This document shows positions 56,123 to 60,785 of a stretch of DNA of 64,000 bases, piece by piece. The DNA lies in contig CADAKI010000001.1 in the NCBI GenBank assembly GCA_902788485.1, forward strand, positions 27,927 through 91,926. Reading direction: 5' to 3'. Every line of letters begins with the position of its first letter. Position 1 is the first letter of the stretch. Both the position numbers and the translations under genes were made by a program. A model generated the notes under the pieces. It was not told the origin of the DNA. It searched no databases and worked only from the letters and a program-made list of their open reading frames with translations. This DNA comes from an uncultured Pseudomonadota bacterium (GTDB lineage: Bacteria; Pseudomonadota; Alphaproteobacteria; Rs-D84).

Positions 56123-57220
56123 ATGATTATTTTCAAAACAACAAAAATTATCGGTATTTTCAGTGCGATATTCATATGTTTTGCATTAACATCGTGCGAC
56201 ATGTCAACACCAACACGCACCGATAATGATGCGGTTGTGCCAACATCCAACCTGCACGCGGTACCGTTTTCATCACTGCCGGGGTGGGAAAATGACGATG
56301 TCAGATATGCACTCCAAGCATTTCGTAACACATGCAATGCAAAATTACAATACACCGGCCGTGTAATCCCGGACGCGGCATTGGTTCGTGAAAAATGCAA
56401 TATGTTGCCGTCTGCAAACGCCGATACAAAAACCGTCCGCAAATGGTTTGAATCACATTTTCAACCCTACCGCATATATGACGATGCGGGACGCAAGACC
56501 GGCACATACACCGGATATTATTCACCAACAATTCCGGCGTGTCGCAAAAAGACATCCCAATGCAACGAACCATTGATGGCGGTCCCCACCGATGGTAAAC
56601 AATATAAAAATGTTCCCAAAAAGAAAATCGTTGAAAATCGCATTGGTCGCGTTTTGTATTGGGCAAACATCGTCGATGTCCAAAACATACAAATCCAAGG
56701 CAGTGGTCTGTTAAAACTGGAAGATGGCGAATTGGTAAAATTAAATTTTGGCGCAACGAACGACATGCAATTTAAATCTATCGGCGAACAATTACGCACC
56801 CGTGGCATAAAACCTGATGGCGGATACAGTGCCGACGCCGTATGGAAATATTTGAAAAAACACCCCACCCTTGCACGCGAGGTAATTTACAACAACCCAC
56901 GCTATGTTTATTTCCGCGAGGCCGATTCCAAAAAAGTTATCGGCAAATTGGGAACACCATTATCAAAAATACGCAGTATCGCCGTCGATGATTCCATTTA
57001 CACCGTCGGCATGCCGGTATATATAAACACAAATTTATCAGACGGTCGCAAATTCCAACGATTGATGATTGCCCAAGACACCGGCAGTGCCATTCGTGGT
57101 TGGATACGCGCAGACATATTCTTTGGTTCGGGGGACGCGGCATATAAATATGCACACGGCCAACACAGCACCGGTGAAATGTACATATTACTGCCACGGG
57201 TTTACACAAATGCAAAATAA
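56123..57220 (+). CDS. mltA: Membrane-bound lytic murein transglycosylase A (lipoprotein)
   Basis: 365 aa. Lipobox LTSC, MltA domain (TGYYSPT..., LYWANIVDVQNIQIQGSG), and C-terminal 3D domain (IAVDDSIY...AQDTGSAIRG...ADIFFG). Confidence 0.85.
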   Translation: MIIFKTTKIIGIFSAIFICFALTSCDMSTPTRTDNDAVVPTSNLHAVPFSSLPGWENDDVRYALQAFRNTCNAKLQYTGRVIPDAALVREKCNMLPSANADTKTVRKWFESHFQPYRIYDDAGRKTGTYTGYYSPTIPACRKKTSQCNEPLMAVPTDGKQYKNVPKKKIVENRIGRVLYWANIVDVQNIQIQGSGLLKLEDGELVKLNFGATNDMQFKSIGEQLRTRGIKPDGGYSADAVWKYLKKHPTLAREVIYNNPRYVYFREADSKKVIGKLGTPLSKIRSIAVDDSIYTVGMPVYINTNLSDGRKFQRLMIAQDTGSAIRGWIRADIFFGSGDAAYKYAHGQHSTGEMYILLPRVYTNAK

Positions 57221-57545
57221 TAAATATGACAAAAAATTAGATGTCCGTATCACGCGCCCAACATTTATATCGGGCGTGTTTGGTAATTTATTTCAAACAT
57301 TTCATCGACCTGCATCCGTTGATGATTTAACCACACGATGGGACGAAATCATGGGCCCCGACATTGCACCAATTGCGAAATTAGTTGCAATAAAAAAAAC
57401 ACGCGATAACAAATTCAGTGTTGTAATAAAACCCGCCAACACCGCATTGGCATTACAATTATCATATGCAAACGACGAAATATTGCGCCGCATAAATAAA
57501 TATTTCGGATATCCTGCCATTTCCAAAATCACATATCGAAAATAA
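57209..57545 (+). CDS. DUF721 (DciA-like) protein
   Basis: 112 aa, from ATG 57209 overlapping the mltA 3' end. RWDEIMGPDIAPIAKLVAIKKTRDNKFSVVIKPANTALALQLSYANDEILRRINKYFGYPAISKITY follows the DUF721 pattern W..i.G..ia.h..p..l..g.L.v.v.s.a.a.eL.....il.rlN..lG. Confidence 0.5.
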
Positions 57546-57563
57546 CACACGAACTCGGACATT

Positions 57564-57660
57564 CCCCTTCTTTATGAAAGAAGGGGTGGATGACGAGCAA
57601 TGCGAGTCAGACGGGGCAGTTGTGAAACAGATAAAATTTATTTCTTTTATTTAATCATAA
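57564..57660 (+). repeat. Hairpin-containing ~100-bp repeat, copy A (upstream of the 748-aa gene)
   Basis: Perfect 10-bp stem ccccttcttt-ATG-aaagaagggg at 57564-57586, followed by tggatgacgagcaatgcgagtcagacggggcagttgtgaaacag and an AT-rich tail. About 85% identical to copy B. Confidence 0.6.
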
Positions 57661-57676
57661 AATATGATAAAATTAT

Positions 57677-59923
57677 ATGACGAAAGAGATTGAATTGAGA
57701 ACGTTCTTTAAAATTTTATCGGCTTTATTTTTGTGCACACCGGCGGCGGTGGCGGCACCCATTTCGCAACCCGCGGGCAGTAATCTGACCCAATACAACG
57801 GTTCAATGGGATCCATCGTTGGCAATCAATGGAACAACGCAATCAACCCGCGCAATAATACCGGAACCACAAAGGCCACGGCCGATTTTGGAAATTGTAA
57901 TTCGTTAATTTTGCGTTGTGCATCACCCAAATGTTCGGGTGGCGGTTGTGCAAATATGGATATTGCGAAACCGATTGTTGCGGGCTGTGTAAATTCTAAT
58001 TCTGCATGTAAAAAGCATGGTGACGATTTAATAAACGCAATCGCGGCACAATTAGTATCCGATTCAATCGCGGCACAAAACAAACAATCGGCAAACGCCG
58101 CCGCTGCGGCTGCCGCGGCGCAACAAAACAATACGGCATTGCAACAACAATTACAATCGATGCAGCAACAAATGGCATCTATGCAACAACAAAATAGTGA
58201 ACAAATAAATTCATTACAACAACAGTTGGCGGAATCACAGCGCGAAACACAAAACGCGGTCGCGTCGGTCGCGGAAAATGCATCGCGTGCGGCAACGGCG
58301 ACAAATAGCGACACGGGCCTGACCCCGGTGCAAGAGGCGGCGGCAAAATCGGGTGTATCGGATGATGTAATTGCACGCGCCACAATTACCGGACAAATTT
58401 TAACCAGTATGGAAGGCGTCGACCAAAGTTTGAATAATTTAAAAACAACAATGCGTGACGCGTTCCGCTATGCCAAATGTAACGAGGTCAATGGAAATAA
58501 TTGCAGTGCCCCAAAACGCGTTGCAAAATTCCGCGAATTGGCAAACAAATTTATGGAACCATACGACGCATTGGCGGACAACCTGGACGATGCATTATTC
58601 ACCGCGCAATCGGTCGGTGTTGATTTGGGTAATATTTATATGTTTTTCAGTGGCTCTTGCAACCGTTGGGCGGAATACGTTTGCCGTGGTGATTATGCTG
58701 AAAAATGCACTGGCGAAGGAGAAAGCAGAAAATGTGAATCCGGTTTACCAACATATAAATATGGAGATAATTGCATAAAAGATACACATAAATCCAGCAA
58801 AAATAACGGCATCACTCGTGGAGGACACGATTGTTATGAAGGAAATGTTATTCCACCCGAAGATTTAATTGCATGCACGCCGAATAAATACCTGGACCCA
58901 AGCGATGGCCCAATCCAAGAAAAAATCTTAAATCCCGACGCAACATCCACGGGTTCGGTGCGTATCGGTTGCGCCAGTGACAGTATAAACAACAGCATTA
59001 TCCGCCGTCGCCGCAGCAGCAGTAAAAACAAATCCGGCATCGATATTGATTTATTGGAAATATTACTGAATCAAAATGAAGCAAGTAGTAAATTTAGCAA
59101 AACATTTGATAAATGTGATTCCGATACGAAATCTGCATGTTATTGCGGTTTGGGAAAAAACAATAACGACAGCGAGCTATCTGTTAGCATAAACAAAGCA
59201 ATAACTCAATTAAAGACCGCAACCGTATCAAAAACTTTGGGCAAAAACGCATGTATAGAATCATTTAGTTCCGCGGCAGCGACAACCAAAATGGTTGACT
59301 GTTATGATTTAGACCAAGATGTCTCTTATGTTGACCCGATATTTGCGCTGTGTGATACACATGCATGGAACGCGGGAATTGAATCAAATGACGACATTAA
59401 CGGTTCTGGCAAATCTGAAAACCGCGAAAAAATGAACGAAATTATCGCACTGAAAACAACCGTGATTGCACAACAAATGTATAAACAATACGCGACATTG
59501 GAACAAATGATTAAACAATTAAAAGTTATGTTGGAAAAAGAAGTGTTAAAGGCATCTGTCCAGGTTGCCGGCGGCACATCGTCCGACGACGATACATCCA
59601 CAGACAAGGTAGAGTTTTCATCTTGTTCCGCATTTGACGATGAAGAAGCATTAAGTTGCTTGCGCGACAATTACGCAAAATTACAACCGATTGTTGAAAA
59701 AGGCAGATTAAATAACAATTACAGAGACCAACTGAGCAAAGATTGCGCAGTAACCAAGGCATTACAGGTTGTAACAAGTTGTGATAAATGTTCTTCTATA
59801 AATAGCAAACAAAAAATGAAAGATTGTTTAGAAGTTATTGCCGGCGGTATGAATGCATTAAACAGGCGAATCAAAGACGACAAAGCAAAAAATAATAGTG
59901 TATCATATCGATTGATTCAATAA
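57677..59923 (+). CDS. Large secreted cysteine-rich protein with Ala/Gln coiled-coil segment (hypothetical)
   Basis: 748 aa. Signal peptide LSALFLCTPAAVAAP, about 40 Cys, a poly-Ala/Gln coiled-coil (AAAAAAAAQQNNTALQQQLQSMQQQMASMQQQ), and RRRRSSS. No recognisable catalytic domain. Flanked by repeat copies A and B. Confidence 0.5.
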   Translation: MTKEIELRTFFKILSALFLCTPAAVAAPISQPAGSNLTQYNGSMGSIVGNQWNNAINPRNNTGTTKATADFGNCNSLILRCASPKCSGGGCANMDIAKPIVAGCVNSNSACKKHGDDLINAIAAQLVSDSIAAQNKQSANAAAAAAAAQQNNTALQQQLQSMQQQMASMQQQNSEQINSLQQQLAESQRETQNAVASVAENASRAATATNSDTGLTPVQEAAAKSGVSDDVIARATITGQILTSMEGVDQSLNNLKTTMRDAFRYAKCNEVNGNNCSAPKRVAKFRELANKFMEPYDALADNLDDALFTAQSVGVDLGNIYMFFSGSCNRWAEYVCRGDYAEKCTGEGESRKCESGLPTYKYGDNCIKDTHKSSKNNGITRGGHDCYEGNVIPPEDLIACTPNKYLDPSDGPIQEKILNPDATSTGSVRIGCASDSINNSIIRRRRSSSKNKSGIDIDLLEILLNQNEASSKFSKTFDKCDSDTKSACYCGLGKNNNDSELSVSINKAITQLKTATVSKTLGKNACIESFSSAAATTKMVDCYDLDQDVSYVDPIFALCDTHAWNAGIESNDDINGSGKSENREKMNEIIALKTTVIAQQMYKQYATLEQMIKQLKVMLEKEVLKASVQVAGGTSSDDDTSTDKVEFSSCSAFDDEEALSCLRDNYAKLQPIVEKGRLNNNYRDQLSKDCAVTKALQVVTSCDKCSSINSKQKMKDCLEVIAGGMNALNRRIKDDKAKNNSVSYRLIQ

Positions 59924-59928
59924 TTTTC

Positions 59929-59954
59929 ATCTGGGTTTTCACCCAGATTTTTTT
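59929..59954 (+). terminator. Rho-independent terminator of the 748-aa gene
   Basis: atctgggt-tttc-acccagat hairpin followed by TTTTTTT, 6 nt after the stop. Confidence 0.65.
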
Positions 59955-59971
59955 ACCCGCCACGTCACCGT

Positions 59972-60090
59972 CCCCTTCTTTATGAAAGAAGGGGTGGATT
60001 GCAAGCGAAGCGAGCAAGACGGGGTAATTGTGCACGGCGACGACAGTCGCCATAAAAAATTTTATTATTCTTTCATTTATAATTATTATT
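59972..60090 (+). repeat. Hairpin-containing ~100-bp repeat, copy B (downstream of the 748-aa gene)
   Basis: ccccttctttatgaaagaaggggtggattgcaagcgaagcgagcaagacggggtaattgtg... with an extra ggcgacgacagtcgcc palindrome. Confidence 0.6.
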
Positions 60091-60099
60091 TTACACCAG

Positions 60100-60170
60100 T
60101 TAAAACAAACATTTCACAATTACCTCCCCCGCTAATGCGGGTACTCCTTCTTTCATAAAGAAAGAGACAG
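60100..60170 (-). repeat. Inverted, partial copy C of the same repeat
   Basis: ctccttcttt-cat-aaagaaagag at 60145-60167 is the reverse-oriented hairpin with one mismatch. The adjacent cacaattacctcccccgc is the reverse complement of the gacgggg..ttgtgaaa segment in copies A and B. Confidence 0.5.
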
Positions 60171-60200
60171 TGCGCAAACACACTGAAAACAATAATTCAT

Positions 60201-60680
60201 CTATTGCACATTAAATCGTGCCATATTCGCGTGTGTCATGGCGATTGCGATTGCGTCACTTTCATCCGCCGTTTTAGGTTTTGCCGCCGGCAATAATATT
60301 TTCAGCATTTTATAAATCTGTTCTTTGTCCGCATGCCCTGCCCCGGTCAACGCCTTTTTGATAATATTTGGTTCATATTCAAAAACCGGGATATTATTAT
60401 GCGCAACACTAACAATCGCCGCCGCACGCGCATGCCCCAATAACAAAGTTGTCTTTGGATTTTTATTAGAAAATATAATCTCGATACTACACACATCAGG
60501 TTTGAATTTTTCACATAACTCTGACACACCACGAAAAATAAAATCCAACCGTTCCGGCAACGGCAATTTTGTTGGTGGCAAAATCACACCACTGGCAACA
60601 TATGTACGCGACGACCCGGCAACATCAATTATCGCCCAACCTGTATGCAATAAACCCGGATCAATTCCAATAATTCTCAT
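60201..60680 (-). CDS. ruvC: Holliday-junction resolvase RuvC
   Basis: 159 aa. MRIIGIDPGLLHTGWAII; the catalytic D, E, D, D are positioned as in RuvC. Confidence 0.9.
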   Translation of the reverse strand: MRIIGIDPGLLHTGWAIIDVAGSSRTYVASGVILPPTKLPLPERLDFIFRGVSELCEKFKPDVCSIEIIFSNKNPKTTLLLGHARAAAIVSVAHNNIPVFEYEPNIIKKALTGAGHADKEQIYKMLKILLPAAKPKTADESDAIAIAMTHANMARFNVQ

Positions 60681-60785
60681 GATTTGATTATAACATCTGT
60701 TTCACAAAAAAAATAATAAAAAAGTTGTCGGCTTTGCCGACACATTAACTGAACTTTGAACTTTGCACTCTGAACACTAAAAAAA

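What the first reader, a model, noticed from the sequence alone, without database searches (positions are those of the whole stretch)
57556..60175. Gene for a 748-aa cysteine-rich secreted protein bracketed by ~100-bp direct repeats containing a perfect ATG-loop hairpin, plus an inverted third copy
Copy A (57564-57660) and copy B (59972-60090) share ccccttctttATGaaagaaggggtggat..agc.a.gcgag..agacgggg.a.ttgtg and an AT-rich tail, at about 85% identity. They lie 50 bp upstream and 50 bp downstream of a single gene, just beyond its own terminator. A reverse-oriented partial copy at 60100-60170 abuts copy B, giving a DR-gene-DR-IR arrangement next to ruvC. I saw no other copies in the 64 kb. The enclosed protein has a signal peptide, about 40 Cys, a poly-Ala/Gln coiled-coil and no recognisable domain. 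This looks like a repeat-mobilised or recombination-delimited cassette (RPE/MITE-like or att-like sites) carrying a candidate surface or effector protein.
Basis: seen in the sequence. Interest (0 to 1): 0.7.

Follow-up and report, generated by a model that had tools for sequence, protein, structure and literature searches.

The report
Hairpin repeats linked to DUF559 nuclease
The repeats around this gene are real, but they do not mark a mobile gene cassette: they are gene-less copies of a small hairpin-ended DNA element whose full version carries a DUF559 nuclease, and that pairing was not described in any paper I could search.

Summary
Two 62-nt direct copies (85% identical) bracket the 748-aa gene, and a third, inverted module abuts copy B. 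Nothing else like them occurs in the 64 kb.

The cassette reading fails. The gene is a conserved resident of the dciA-ruvC locus in every relative examined (48-80% protein identity). That includes relatives whose downstream site is empty. Its G+C matches the window.

The repeats belong to a modular palindromic family. The module is ATT, a CCCCTTCTTT-ATG-AAAGAAGGGG hairpin, a variable second hairpin, then GGGGTARTTGTG. It is scattered in intergenic DNA of Candidatus Enterousia (order Rs-D84, genomes under 1 Mb) at 2-20 exact cores per genome. Copies B and C form one inverted pair, like a REPIN or MITE, and that pair recurs as a unit at another locus.

The only gene consistently flanked by these modules is a ~125-aa DUF559 nuclease (Vsr/EDxHD-like), seen at 11 loci. 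In one group of relatives it lies between ruvC and this very gene, and its 3' module is colinear with copy A. DUF559 homologues from unrelated metagenomes carry the same module layout as terminal inverted repeats (57 of 69 loci). Some are in-frame insertions in QueA, FumC and HsdR.

Mobilisation by DUF559 is inferred, not shown.

The parts
57210..57545 (+). dciA (DUF721/DciA), the upstream neighbour
   Evidence: Pfam PF05258, E 1e-13. Gene call in L001.
57561..57624 (+). Copy A, a solo type-1 module: ATT terminus, hairpin 1 (57564-57586, 10-bp stem, ATG loop), variable stem-loop 2 (57587-57612), tail GGGGCAGTTGTG (57613-57624)
   Evidence: nhmmer E 4e-12. It is positionally colinear with the module 3' of the DUF559 gene in L174. 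Stem-loop 2 differs completely from the copies at the same site in L083 and L082.
57625..57694 (+). Native AT-rich upstream region and ribosome-binding site of gene X; not part of the repeat
   Evidence: Conserved in L004, L006, L082, L083 and L174 whatever lies upstream of it.
57677..59923 (+). Gene X: conserved secreted, Cys-rich, mostly helical protein of unknown function (748 aa from the ATG; probably 742 aa from TTG 57695)
   Evidence: More than 700 homologues. 18 of its 29 Cys are invariant in 35 homologues. No Pfam domain above cut-off. AlphaFold model has mean pLDDT 68 and no PDB fold match. Synteny is conserved.
59929..59955 (+). Intrinsic terminator of gene X. In relatives with the empty site it also lies only 10 nt from the ruvC stop.
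59971..60032 (+). Copy B: type-1 module, left arm of the B-C inverted pair
   Evidence: E 3e-14. Conserved at 88-91% in L004, L083 and L020.
60033..60114 (.). Centre of the B-C pair: hairpin GGCGAC-GACA-GTCGCC (60036-60051), then ATAAAAAA and an AT-rich spacer
   Evidence: The same centre is found in pairs at other loci, e.g. L016.
60115..60167 (-). Copy C: type-2 module, right arm of the B-C pair (hairpin 1 at 60144-60166; stem-loop CCCGC-ATTA-GCGGG; tail GGGGGAGGTAATTGTG)
   Evidence: E 2e-13 to the type-2 profile. The B-C stretch folds as one long hairpin: -44 kcal/mol as single-stranded DNA, z = -7.3.
60168..60185 (-). Outer GC hairpin CAGTGTGTTTGCGCACTG. It is followed by the T-rich arm of copy C, which makes a terminator-like site for ruvC.
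   Evidence: GC hairpins of differing sequence abut hairpin 1 in many copies.
60201..60680 (-). ruvC, the downstream neighbour
   Evidence: Pfam PF02075, E 2e-42.

Best explanation
The three repeats are gene-less members of a modular family of palindromic DNA elements that populates intergenic spacers of Candidatus Enterousia and its relatives. Copy A is a solo end. Copies B and C form one inverted pair of about 200 bp, like a MITE or REPIN.

Each module has four parts: an ATT terminus, an invariant perfect hairpin (CCCCTTCTTT-ATG-AAAGAAGGGG), a second hairpin whose sequence varies but which remains a hairpin, and a conserved tail (GGGGTARTTGTG).

The modules are the ends of a small element whose complete form carries one gene, a ~125-aa DUF559 nuclease of the Vsr/EDxHD branch of PD-(D/E)XK enzymes. 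The 748-aa gene is an ordinary, vertically inherited resident of the ruvC locus that has collected these elements in its flanking spacers. In some relatives the DUF559 gene itself lies in the ruvC-X spacer.

Proposed mechanism (inferred, not shown): the DUF559 nuclease recognises the palindromic hairpin-1 sequence, either as a duplex bound by a dimer or as an extruded hairpin or cruciform. It nicks or cuts there, and repair or recombination then copies, moves or rearranges the module-bounded DNA. Gene-less pairs and solo ends would spread and persist in trans, as REPINs are thought to do with RAYT.

Recombination between oppositely oriented modules could also explain why the 748-aa gene has different orientations in different lineages.
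For: Shown by tool results:
1. Dispersed family. An exact 19-mer scan of 185,579 species genomes gave 90 cores in 55 loci of 12 related MAGs (2-20 per genome) plus about 19 single chance hits in other phyla.
2. Intergenic location. 75 of 90 cores lie outside any ORF of at least 120 aa, although such ORFs cover 79% of those loci.
3. Modular anatomy. There are two module types, and more than 25 convergent pairs spaced 109-196 bp. Stem-loop 2 has 55 distinct sequences among 58 unique modules and still folds (mean -4.2 against -1.45 kcal/mol for shuffles).
4. The pair is a unit. L016, next to gyrB, carries an 85%-identical copy of the whole B-C composite. Copies 97-99% identical sit at different loci within single genomes.
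5. Presence/absence. The B-C pair and the ATG-hairpin form of copy A are each present in some relatives and absent in others, while the gene is always present.
6. DUF559 is flanked by modules. All 11 distinct loci of the Enterousia DUF559 clade have a module on both sides wherever flanking sequence exists. Spacing is 11-139 bp in ten loci; in L174 the 3' module overlaps the last codons of the gene. Only the left flank of L072 is too short to test. Five of these loci were fetched by protein alone. They span at least five gene neighbourhoods.
7. Unbiased checks. Clustering of ORFs near elements finds DUF559 as the only recurrent small gene. Pfam on 118 ORFs within 1.2 kb of elements puts DUF559 first and lists no transposase; for the 61 closest the family list is complete.
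8. L174-L176 read ruvC > [module] DUF559 > [module] X. The 3' module is colinear with copy A.
9. Generality. Of 69 DUF559 loci from unrelated metagenomes, 57 have a CCCC..GGGG palindrome on both sides, at 4.5 per kb near the gene against 0.14 per kb elsewhere. The layout is the same: ATT-CCCCTCC-NNN-GGAGGGG-TG-stem-loop-GACGGGGTGGT. 22 are clean TIR-gene-TIR and 1 is divergent.
10. Catalytic residues (E, D, H, D) are invariant or nearly so in the clade.

From the literature: Vsr-like EDxHD enzymes include proven homing endonucleases (PMC3239194, PMC3384342).
Against: - No cleavage, binding or transposition has been shown.
- DUF559 is not a known transposase family.
- No target-site duplication could be defined.
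- Six of the 12 repeat-bearing MAGs showed no DUF559 in the loci held, including RUG13827, which has the most copies. This is weak evidence, because the gene often sits on contigs under 2 kb that binning discards.
- In Enterousia most DUF559 genes lie between outward-pointing modules rather than inside a pair, so a simple TIR-gene-TIR parent does not fit all cases.
- A profile built only from metagenome modules hits window copy A weakly (E 0.05, hairpin part only). The link between the Enterousia module and the general module therefore rests on shared layout and on the shared DUF559 partner.
- The window's own genome beyond these 64 kb was not searched.
Confidence: 0.6

Rival explanations
1. 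DUF559 is a homing-type selfish gene that targets pre-existing hairpin repeats. On this reading the repeats are host or independent elements that serve as its landing sites, and they are not produced or moved by it.
For: - EDxHD/Vsr-like enzymes are homing endonucleases (PMC3239194, PMC3384342).
- In Enterousia the gene usually lies between two outward-facing modules or between two complete pairs.
- Its location varies while it is always next to hairpin 1.
- No target-site duplications were seen, as expected for copying by break repair.
Against: - Outside Enterousia the modules are arranged as terminal inverted repeats pointing at the gene, and they travel with it into unrelated coding sequences (QueA, FumC, HsdR). 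Those genes would not have held a pre-existing repeat.
- Hairpin palindromes are 32-fold enriched next to the gene and rare elsewhere in those loci.
Confidence: 0.2
2. The modules are host-serving structural or regulatory DNA or RNA, such as terminators, mRNA stabilisers or protein-binding sites as proposed for REP/BIME. They are immobile, and the link to DUF559 is regulatory or incidental.
For: - The outer GC hairpin followed by the T-rich arm of hairpin 1 scores as a terminator for ruvC.
- The elements are intergenic.
- The B-C pair is conserved at 88-91% across four species, about as well as the flanking genes.
Against: - Sites are patchily occupied among close relatives.
- Copies 97-99% identical lie at unrelated loci within one genome.
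- Tandem arrays occur (L090).
- Gene X already has its own terminator upstream of copy B.
- Copy A lies upstream of the conserved promoter region.
- No Rfam family matches.
- The association with DUF559 is far too strong to be chance.
Confidence: 0.12
3. One reading: copies A and B are att-like or recombination sites delimiting a mobile cassette that carries the 748-aa surface or effector gene.
For: Direct repeats sit about 50 bp from either end of a single gene.
Against: - The gene is present at the same locus in all relatives examined, down to 48% identity, with or without the repeats.
- Gene G+C equals the background.
- No recombinase is nearby.
- The same repeats flank many unrelated genes.
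Confidence: 0.02
4. These are classical REPINs mobilised by a RAYT (Y1/HUH transposase) that was simply not sampled.
For: - Inverted doublets form long hairpins.
- The elements are intergenic.
- They look vertically persistent.
- A CGTC tetranucleotide adjoins stem-loop 2 on the complementary strand of type-1 modules, as in CGTC-tagged REPs (PMC3733652).
Against: - No PF01797 or any other transposase was listed among 118 ORFs within 1.2 kb of elements. For the 61 closest the family list was complete.
- RAYTs are defined by being flanked by their REPs, and here the flanked gene is DUF559.
Confidence: 0.04

Closest known systems
REPIN-RAYT systems (REP doublets plus a REP-associated tyrosine transposase; PMC3116915, PMC3337134)
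   Same: - Short palindromic repeats in intergenic DNA.
- Frequent inverted doublets that fold into one long hairpin.
- A small partner gene flanked by the repeats on both sides, found once per genome wherever it was seen here.
- Apparently long vertical persistence, with within-genome populations of near-identical copies.
   Different: - The flanked gene is a DUF559 (Vsr/EDxHD-like PD-(D/E)XK) nuclease, not a Y1/HUH transposase.
- Each module has two hairpins plus a conserved 12-nt tail.
- Copy number is tens per genome, not hundreds.
- The invariant part is a perfect 23-nt palindrome.
BIMEs and other intergenic mosaic elements (E. coli BIME, rhizobial RIME); recalled from my own knowledge
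   Same: Mosaics of two palindromic unit types in alternating orientation, separated by a few conserved linker motifs, and located between genes or after terminators.
   Different: - No sequence relationship.
- No nuclease partner is known for BIME or RIME.
- The element here extends to units that carry a gene.
MITEs derived from insertion sequences (e.g. the Neisseria Correia element); recalled from my own knowledge
   Same: - Non-coding units of about 130-200 bp with terminal inverted repeats.
- The ends are shared with a longer gene-carrying version (L086, L090 and 22 metagenome loci).
   Different: - No target-site duplication was seen.
- The gene of the long version is not a DDE, serine or tyrosine transposase.
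Rickettsia palindromic elements (RPE); recalled from my own knowledge
   Same: - Palindromic selfish DNA in a reduced alphaproteobacterial genome.
- The wider DUF559-hairpin family inserts in frame into protein-coding genes (QueA, FumC, HsdR, methylases), the property RPEs are known for.
   Different: - The three window copies and 75 of the 90 Enterousia cores counted lie outside long ORFs.
- RPEs have no associated enzyme.
- Sequence similarity to RPEs was not tested.
EDxHD/Vsr-like homing endonucleases (I-Bth0305I, PMC3239194; DUF559 structure PDB 3hrl)
   Same: - The same nuclease fold and catalytic residues (E64, D66 and H70 invariant, D71 nearly so).
- 3hrl is the only solved homologue, E 3e-27.
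- A selfish, site-invading lifestyle, including residence inside host genes.
   Different: - Known members reside in group I introns or inteins, or are free-standing genes.
- Here the gene is bounded by about 45-60-nt hairpin modules that also exist without it in many copies.
- The flanks are too short to be an intron or an intein, and they are read through in frame.

Membership tests
REPIN-RAYT | Short palindromic repeats dispersed in extragenic DNA | tested here: met
   90 exact cores in 12 related genomes. 75 of 90 lie outside ORFs of at least 120 aa, which cover 79% of the loci.
REPIN-RAYT | Two repeats in inverted orientation with a short spacer, folding into one hairpin | tested here: met
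   More than 25 convergent pairs spaced 109-196 bp. The window B-C pair folds at -44 kcal/mol, z = -7.3.
REPIN-RAYT | A cognate RAYT gene (Y1/HUH transposase, PF01797) flanked by the repeats | tested here: not met
   No PF01797 hit was listed among 118 ORFs within 1.2 kb of elements, and the family list was complete for the 61 closest. The flanked gene is DUF559. Whole genomes could not be scanned.
REPIN-RAYT | A GTAG or CGTC tetranucleotide at the 5' end of the palindrome (PMC3733652) | tested here: inconclusive
   CGTC adjoins stem-loop 2 on the complementary strand of type-1 modules, and GTAG occurs in some tails. The conserved palindrome (hairpin 1) carries neither.
MITE | A small non-coding unit with terminal inverted repeats | tested here: met
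   The B-C pair at 59971-60167; pairs listed.
MITE | Target-site duplication | tested here: inconclusive
   Comparison of filled and empty sites (window against L082 and L006) gives at best a weak TCAYC. No consistent duplication appears across 26 pairs.
MITE | An autonomous parent with the same ends that encodes a transposase | tested here: inconclusive
   TIR-DUF559-TIR units exist (L086, L090 and 22 metagenome loci), but DUF559 is not an established transposase.
   The gene is present in L006 and L082 (empty downstream site) and in L084 and L085 (no module detected).
   The neighbours are mltA, dciA, ruvC and yebC. Gene G+C is 42.5% against 41.8% for the window.
EDxHD/Vsr-like homing endonuclease element | A nuclease with conserved E, D, H, D catalytic residues of the Vsr-like fold | tested here: met
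   PF04480, E 1e-29 to 1e-32. E64, D66 and H70 are invariant and D71 nearly so. PDB 3hrl, E 3e-27. This applies to the partner gene in relatives; the window itself holds no DUF559.
EDxHD/Vsr-like homing endonuclease element | Residence in a self-splicing intron or an intein | tested here: not met
   The flanks are about 45-60-nt hairpin modules. No intron family matches in Rfam. The in-frame flanks of about 30-45 aa lack intein-sized splicing domains.
EDxHD/Vsr-like homing endonuclease element | Cleavage of the empty target allele | not testable with these tools
   Needs biochemistry.
Rickettsia palindromic elements | In-frame insertion inside protein-coding genes | tested here: not met
   Window copies A, B and C are intergenic. 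The property does hold for DUF559-bearing relatives in other bacteria: about 17 of 80 loci.

The most novel reading that the evidence does not exclude
DUF559 nucleases together with their conserved two-hairpin terminal modules form a widespread, so far undescribed class of bacterial mobile element. The class uses a Vsr/EDxHD-type nuclease rather than a DDE, tyrosine or serine enzyme. It can sit in frame inside host proteins. In Enterousia it has spawned a population of gene-less pairs and solo ends, like REPINs or MITEs, and the three window repeats are members of that population.
Probability: 0.35. Interest if true: 0.85.

Novelty: new variant of a known kind. Interest (0 to 1): 0.6.

Why it matters
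For this window the result is deflationary. The 748-aa protein is a native, conserved gene, not cargo. The repeats are small selfish or structural elements in its spacers.

The wider point is more interesting. REP/REPIN-type repeats have so far been tied to one enzyme family, RAYT. Here a comparable repeat population is tied to a DUF559 nuclease, a very common 'domain of unknown function'. The same hairpin modules bound DUF559 genes across unrelated bacteria, including in-frame insertions into QueA, FumC and restriction-modification proteins.

If the nuclease does act on these hairpins, three things follow:
- It would give DUF559 a function.
- It would explain why DUF559 genes were flagged among genes flanked by inverted repeats (PMC9881135).
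- It would explain many multi-domain 'DUF559 fusions' and add a new mechanism class to small bacterial mobile DNA.

There is also a practical consequence. These repeats break metagenome assemblies, so the DUF559 gene is often stranded on contigs under 2 kb.

Tried and rejected
- **Cassette or att-site model.** Rejected on synteny and composition.
- **Known RNA family.** Rfam at gathering thresholds on the whole window found nothing. E-value mode on the region and on five related loci gave only chance-level hits. No tRNA or tmRNA that could serve as an integration site.
- **Phage origin.** No exact match of the hairpin core in IMG/VR viral contigs.
- **RAYT or another transposase near the repeats.** None listed.
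- **Target-site duplications.** None convincing.
- **Covariation in stem-loop 2.** RNAalifold failed because the stems sit in different registers. I replaced it with per-sequence folding against shuffles.
- **E. coli ycjD (DUF559).** It is not flanked by comparable modules; there is only a 17-bp perfect inverted repeat at its start.
- **Function of the 748-aa protein.**
  - Pfam hits are below cut-off.
  - The AlphaFold model has mean pLDDT 68, and Foldseek against the PDB found nothing with E below 1.
  - The afdb50 library was unavailable.
- **Metagenome-only module profile against the window.** Only a marginal hit, E 0.05.
- **Literature.** Searches for DUF559, PF04480, YcjD and EDxHD found no description of these flanking hairpins.


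Full report

Yes. The region reads as follows:
- dciA (57210-57545, +).
- Copy A (57563-57624, +).
- A 748-aa ORF (57677-59923, +) with its own intrinsic terminator (59929-59948 plus a T-run).
- Copy B (59971-60032, +), then an AT-rich stretch.
- An inverted module, copy C (60115-60167, -).
- A GC hairpin (60168-60185), then ruvC (60201-60680, -).

Copies A and B are 85% identical over 62 nt without gaps. All three copies hold the 10-bp-stem, ATG-loop hairpin, with one mismatch in C. A 19-nt core search allowing three mismatches finds only these sites in 64 kb, against 0.02 expected by chance. Profile searches find no further copies.

Four corrections are needed:
- The repeat is about 62-64 nt long, not 100.
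- The AT-rich 'tail' of copy A is the gene's own conserved upstream region.
- Copy C is a complete module of a sister type, not a partial copy.
- The protein has 29 Cys, not about 40.

**2. The gene is not cargo.**

The ORF has more than 700 full-length homologues in uncultured Alphaproteobacteria. 18 of its 29 Cys are invariant across 35 homologues down to 35% identity. Its G+C is 42.5%, against 41.8% for the window.

Its neighbourhood (recA, MFS, secB, mltA, dciA, X, ruvC, yebC, ruvA, mnmE) is kept in L004, L006, L082 and L083, which share 72-80% protein identity with it. In more distant relatives the gene stays at the ruvC locus but in other orientations:
- L085 and L174: dciA > ruvC > X.
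- L084 and RUG13870: X directly downstream of ruvC on the same strand.

Occupancy by the repeats is patchy:
- The window, L083 and L020 have A, B and C.
- L004 has B and C, but a different GC-rich insert upstream.
- L082 has a divergent module at the copy A site and a clean empty site downstream, with 10 nt between the terminator and the ruvC stop.
- L006 has the same empty downstream site. Upstream it has only a remnant: a centre-type hairpin, CACAACTG and one heptad.
- L084 and L085 have none.

**3. What the repeats are.**

An exact scan of one genome per species (GTDB) with the 19-nt hairpin core returned 74 loci. 55 of them, holding 90 cores, come from 12 related rumen or gut MAGs. These include Candidatus Enterousia onthequi and another Enterousia species. 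The remaining loci are single chance hits in other phyla. Enterousia belongs to the uncultured order Rs-D84 and has genomes below 1 Mb (PMC12306168). The window is 82-92% identical in DNA to these relatives, so it comes from a further species of the genus.

The cores are intergenic. 75 of 90 lie outside any ORF of at least 120 aa, although such ORFs cover 79% of the loci. The other 15 lie in short frames that run across the repeats; the two I checked (L008, L041) are spurious 5' extensions of real genes.

Listing all copies shows a modular unit:
- Either GGAYATT or a GC hairpin ending in CCGT.
- Hairpin 1, C(C/T)CCTTCTTT-ATG-AAAGAAGG(G/A)G.
- A second stem-loop.
- The tail GGGG(AGG)TA(A/G)TTGTG.

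There are two module types. Copies A and B are type 1 and copy C is type 2. The two types usually occur as a convergent pair 109-196 bp apart, around a centre that often holds a third hairpin followed by ATAAAAA.

The window B-C pair is one such unit. It folds as a single long hairpin (-44 kcal/mol as single-stranded DNA, z = -7.3). An 85%-identical copy of the whole 220-bp composite lies next to gyrB in RUG13827. Within single genomes, copies at different loci are 97-99% identical.

Hairpin 1 is invariant. Stem-loop 2 has 55 different sequences among 58 unique modules, yet it remains a hairpin. At the orthologous copy A site it differs completely between the window, L083 and L082. That points to conversion or replacement rather than point mutation.

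**4. The partner gene.**

Two divergent module pairs about 500 bp apart led to a ~125-aa ORF that is a confident DUF559 (PF04480, E 1e-29 to 1e-32).
- In loci chosen only for the repeat, unbiased clustering of ORFs near elements finds DUF559 as the only recurrent small gene, in six genomes.
- Pfam scans of 118 ORFs within 1.2 kb of elements rank DUF559 first and list no RAYT or other transposase. For the 61 closest ORFs the family list was complete.
- I then fetched contexts by protein alone. All 11 distinct loci of this clade carry a module on both sides wherever flanking sequence exists. The spacing is 11-139 bp in ten loci; in L174 the 3' module overlaps the last codons of the gene. Only the left flank of L072 is too short to test.
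- They lie in at least five neighbourhoods: recO/rplI, the lpxI region, a VTT-domain gene next to a surface-protein gene, rpmE, and ruvC/X.
- Many clade members sit on contigs under 2 kb, as expected if flanking repeats break assemblies.
- A 48%-identical paralogue in L090 is flanked by a different GC-rich hairpin family. That same family forms the insert upstream of gene X in L004.

**5. The direct link to this locus.**

In L174-L176 the order is mltA > dciA > ruvC > [module, -] DUF559 > [module, +] X. The module 3' of DUF559 aligns colinearly with window copy A and with the conserved upstream region of X. The DUF559 reading frame ends at the TGA formed by the hairpin's ATG loop and the base after it.

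Copy A is therefore the positional counterpart of a DUF559 flank. The ruvC-X spacer, which holds the gene-less B-C pair in the window, holds the complete gene in these relatives. Inverted modules lie at both borders of X and X has different orientations in different lineages. Module-mediated inversion is therefore plausible, but it is an inference.

**6. Generality.**

A metagenome scan with the clade alignment returned 80 DUF559 loci only 40-57% identical, from sediments, lakes, guts and bioreactors.
- Of 69 with enough flank, 57 have a perfect CCCC..GGGG palindrome on both sides, 11 on one side and 1 on neither.
- The density is 4.5 per kb near the gene against 0.14 per kb farther away.
- The consensus module has the same layout as the Enterousia module: (A/T)ATT-CCCCTCC-NNN-GGAGGGG-TG-[stem-loop]-(GAC)GGGGTGGT. 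Some second stem-loops are nearly identical.
- By a strict oriented pattern, 22 loci are TIR-gene-TIR and one is divergent.
- In about 17 of 80 loci the whole unit is an in-frame insertion in a host ORF: HsdR twice, QueA twice at the same site, FumC, Eco57I/ISP-type and N6/N4 methylases, and HsdS.
- Paired examples are 72-73% identical over the entire fusion, so these insertions are old and tolerated.

**7. Comparison with what is known.**

- DUF559 belongs with Vsr and with the EDxHD homing endonucleases (PMC3424549, PMC3239194, PMC3384342; one genome paper assigns a DUF559 gene to that family, PMC9403480).
- The catalytic residues E64, D66 and H70 are invariant in the clade, and D71 nearly so.
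- The only solved homologue is PDB 3hrl.
- DUF559 genes were statistically enriched among genes flanked by inverted repeats in a survey of programmed inversions (PMC9881135). The hairpin modules explain that enrichment.
- I found no paper describing these modules or their gene-less copies.
- Rfam has no matching family.

By behaviour the closest system is REPIN-RAYT, but its defining enzyme is absent. BIME-type mosaics, MITEs and RPEs each share some traits.

**8. Mechanism and confidence.**

Shown:
- The family exists.
- It is modular, intergenic and multi-copy.
- Sites are polymorphic between relatives.
- DUF559 is tightly flanked by modules on both sides.
- The window copies belong to this family.

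Inferred:
- DUF559 acts on hairpin 1. A perfect 23-bp palindrome suits a dimeric PD-(D/E)XK enzyme or an extruded hairpin.
- Break repair or recombination then spreads or rearranges module-bounded DNA, with gene-less pairs riding in trans.

The main rival is that DUF559 homes into pre-existing repeats. The in-frame insertions argue against this, because there the modules arrive together with the gene.

Weak points:
- No target-site duplication.
- DUF559 was not seen in six of the twelve MAGs. This is uninformative, because binning discards short contigs.
- The gene sits between outward-facing modules in most Enterousia loci.
- The direct profile match between the general and the Enterousia modules is only marginal.
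- The rest of the window's genome was not searched.

**9. The 748-aa protein.**

It has an N-terminal signal-like segment (FFKILSALFLCTPAAVAAP) and a mostly helical predicted structure (mean pLDDT 68). It matched no PDB fold by Foldseek and no Pfam domain above cut-off. It is a clade-specific extracytoplasmic protein of unknown function. Nothing links that function to the repeats.

**10. Verdict.**

The finding as written, a repeat-delimited cassette, is wrong. The repeats are genuine and turn out to be the local, gene-less face of a DUF559-associated hairpin element that appears not to have been described.

Noticed in passing
window 60752-60772; also L083 2929-2965, L060 4286-4350, L067 5650-5720: Tandem heptads (A/T/C)ACT(T/C)TG with copy number varying from 1 to at least 8. 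They usually follow CA(A/C)CTG, which is the reverse complement of the module tail, and sit next to terminators or promoters. They are present just upstream of the gene X promoter in L082, L083, L004 and L006 but absent there in the window.
   Followed up: partly
L095, L110 (HsdR); L158, L103 (QueA); L128 (FumC); L111, L166, L173, L130 (methylases/ISP); L148 (HsdS): DUF559 together with both hairpin modules is inserted in frame, without stop codons, inside host proteins. The hairpins are translated as peptides such as SPPxEG. Paired cases are 72-73% identical over the whole fusion, so the insertions are old.
   Followed up: partly
L090/L091 312-659 (-) and its flanks; L004 3790-3880: A second DUF559 paralogue (48% identity) is bounded by a different GC-rich hairpin family: ATTCCGCCCC..GGGG.GGGGGACC-stem-loop-GGTGG.GGGGGTTA. 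A copy of that family replaces copy A upstream of gene X in L004. This suggests cognate nuclease-repeat pairs.
   Followed up: partly
14 of the 55 repeat-selected loci, e.g. L037 2085-3998, L012 6064-7755: A paralogous family of secreted proteins lies next to the elements unusually often. Its recurring motifs are LPxGYTELEYIxSTGTQ and VGMYDTV..FYTNAGTGTF.AG, and the one member tested had no Pfam hit.
   Followed up: partly
L084, L085, L174, L025/L073 compared with window 57677-60680: The orientation of gene X, and of the ruvC-X block, differs between lineages at the same locus. Modules or contig breaks lie at the borders, which is compatible with inversions mediated by the repeats.
   Followed up: partly
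window 57677 and 57695: The annotated ATG at 57677 is AAG in L174, and most homologues begin at the position of TTG 57695, which is preceded by GAAAGAG. The real protein is therefore probably 742 aa.
   Followed up: partly
L004 6979-7674, L006 6769-7464, L083 5989-6705: An extra gene of 231-238 aa with no Pfam hit lies between ruvC and yebC in three relatives. It is absent from the window.
   Followed up: no
L174 2366-2399: The DUF559 reading frame runs into the downstream hairpin and stops at the TGA formed by the ATG loop and the base after it (TTA-TGA).
   Followed up: no
L090/L091 1998-2362: Three type-1 modules lie in tandem with a 157-bp period, interleaved with the second hairpin family, directly upstream of the DUF559 gene.
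   Followed up: no
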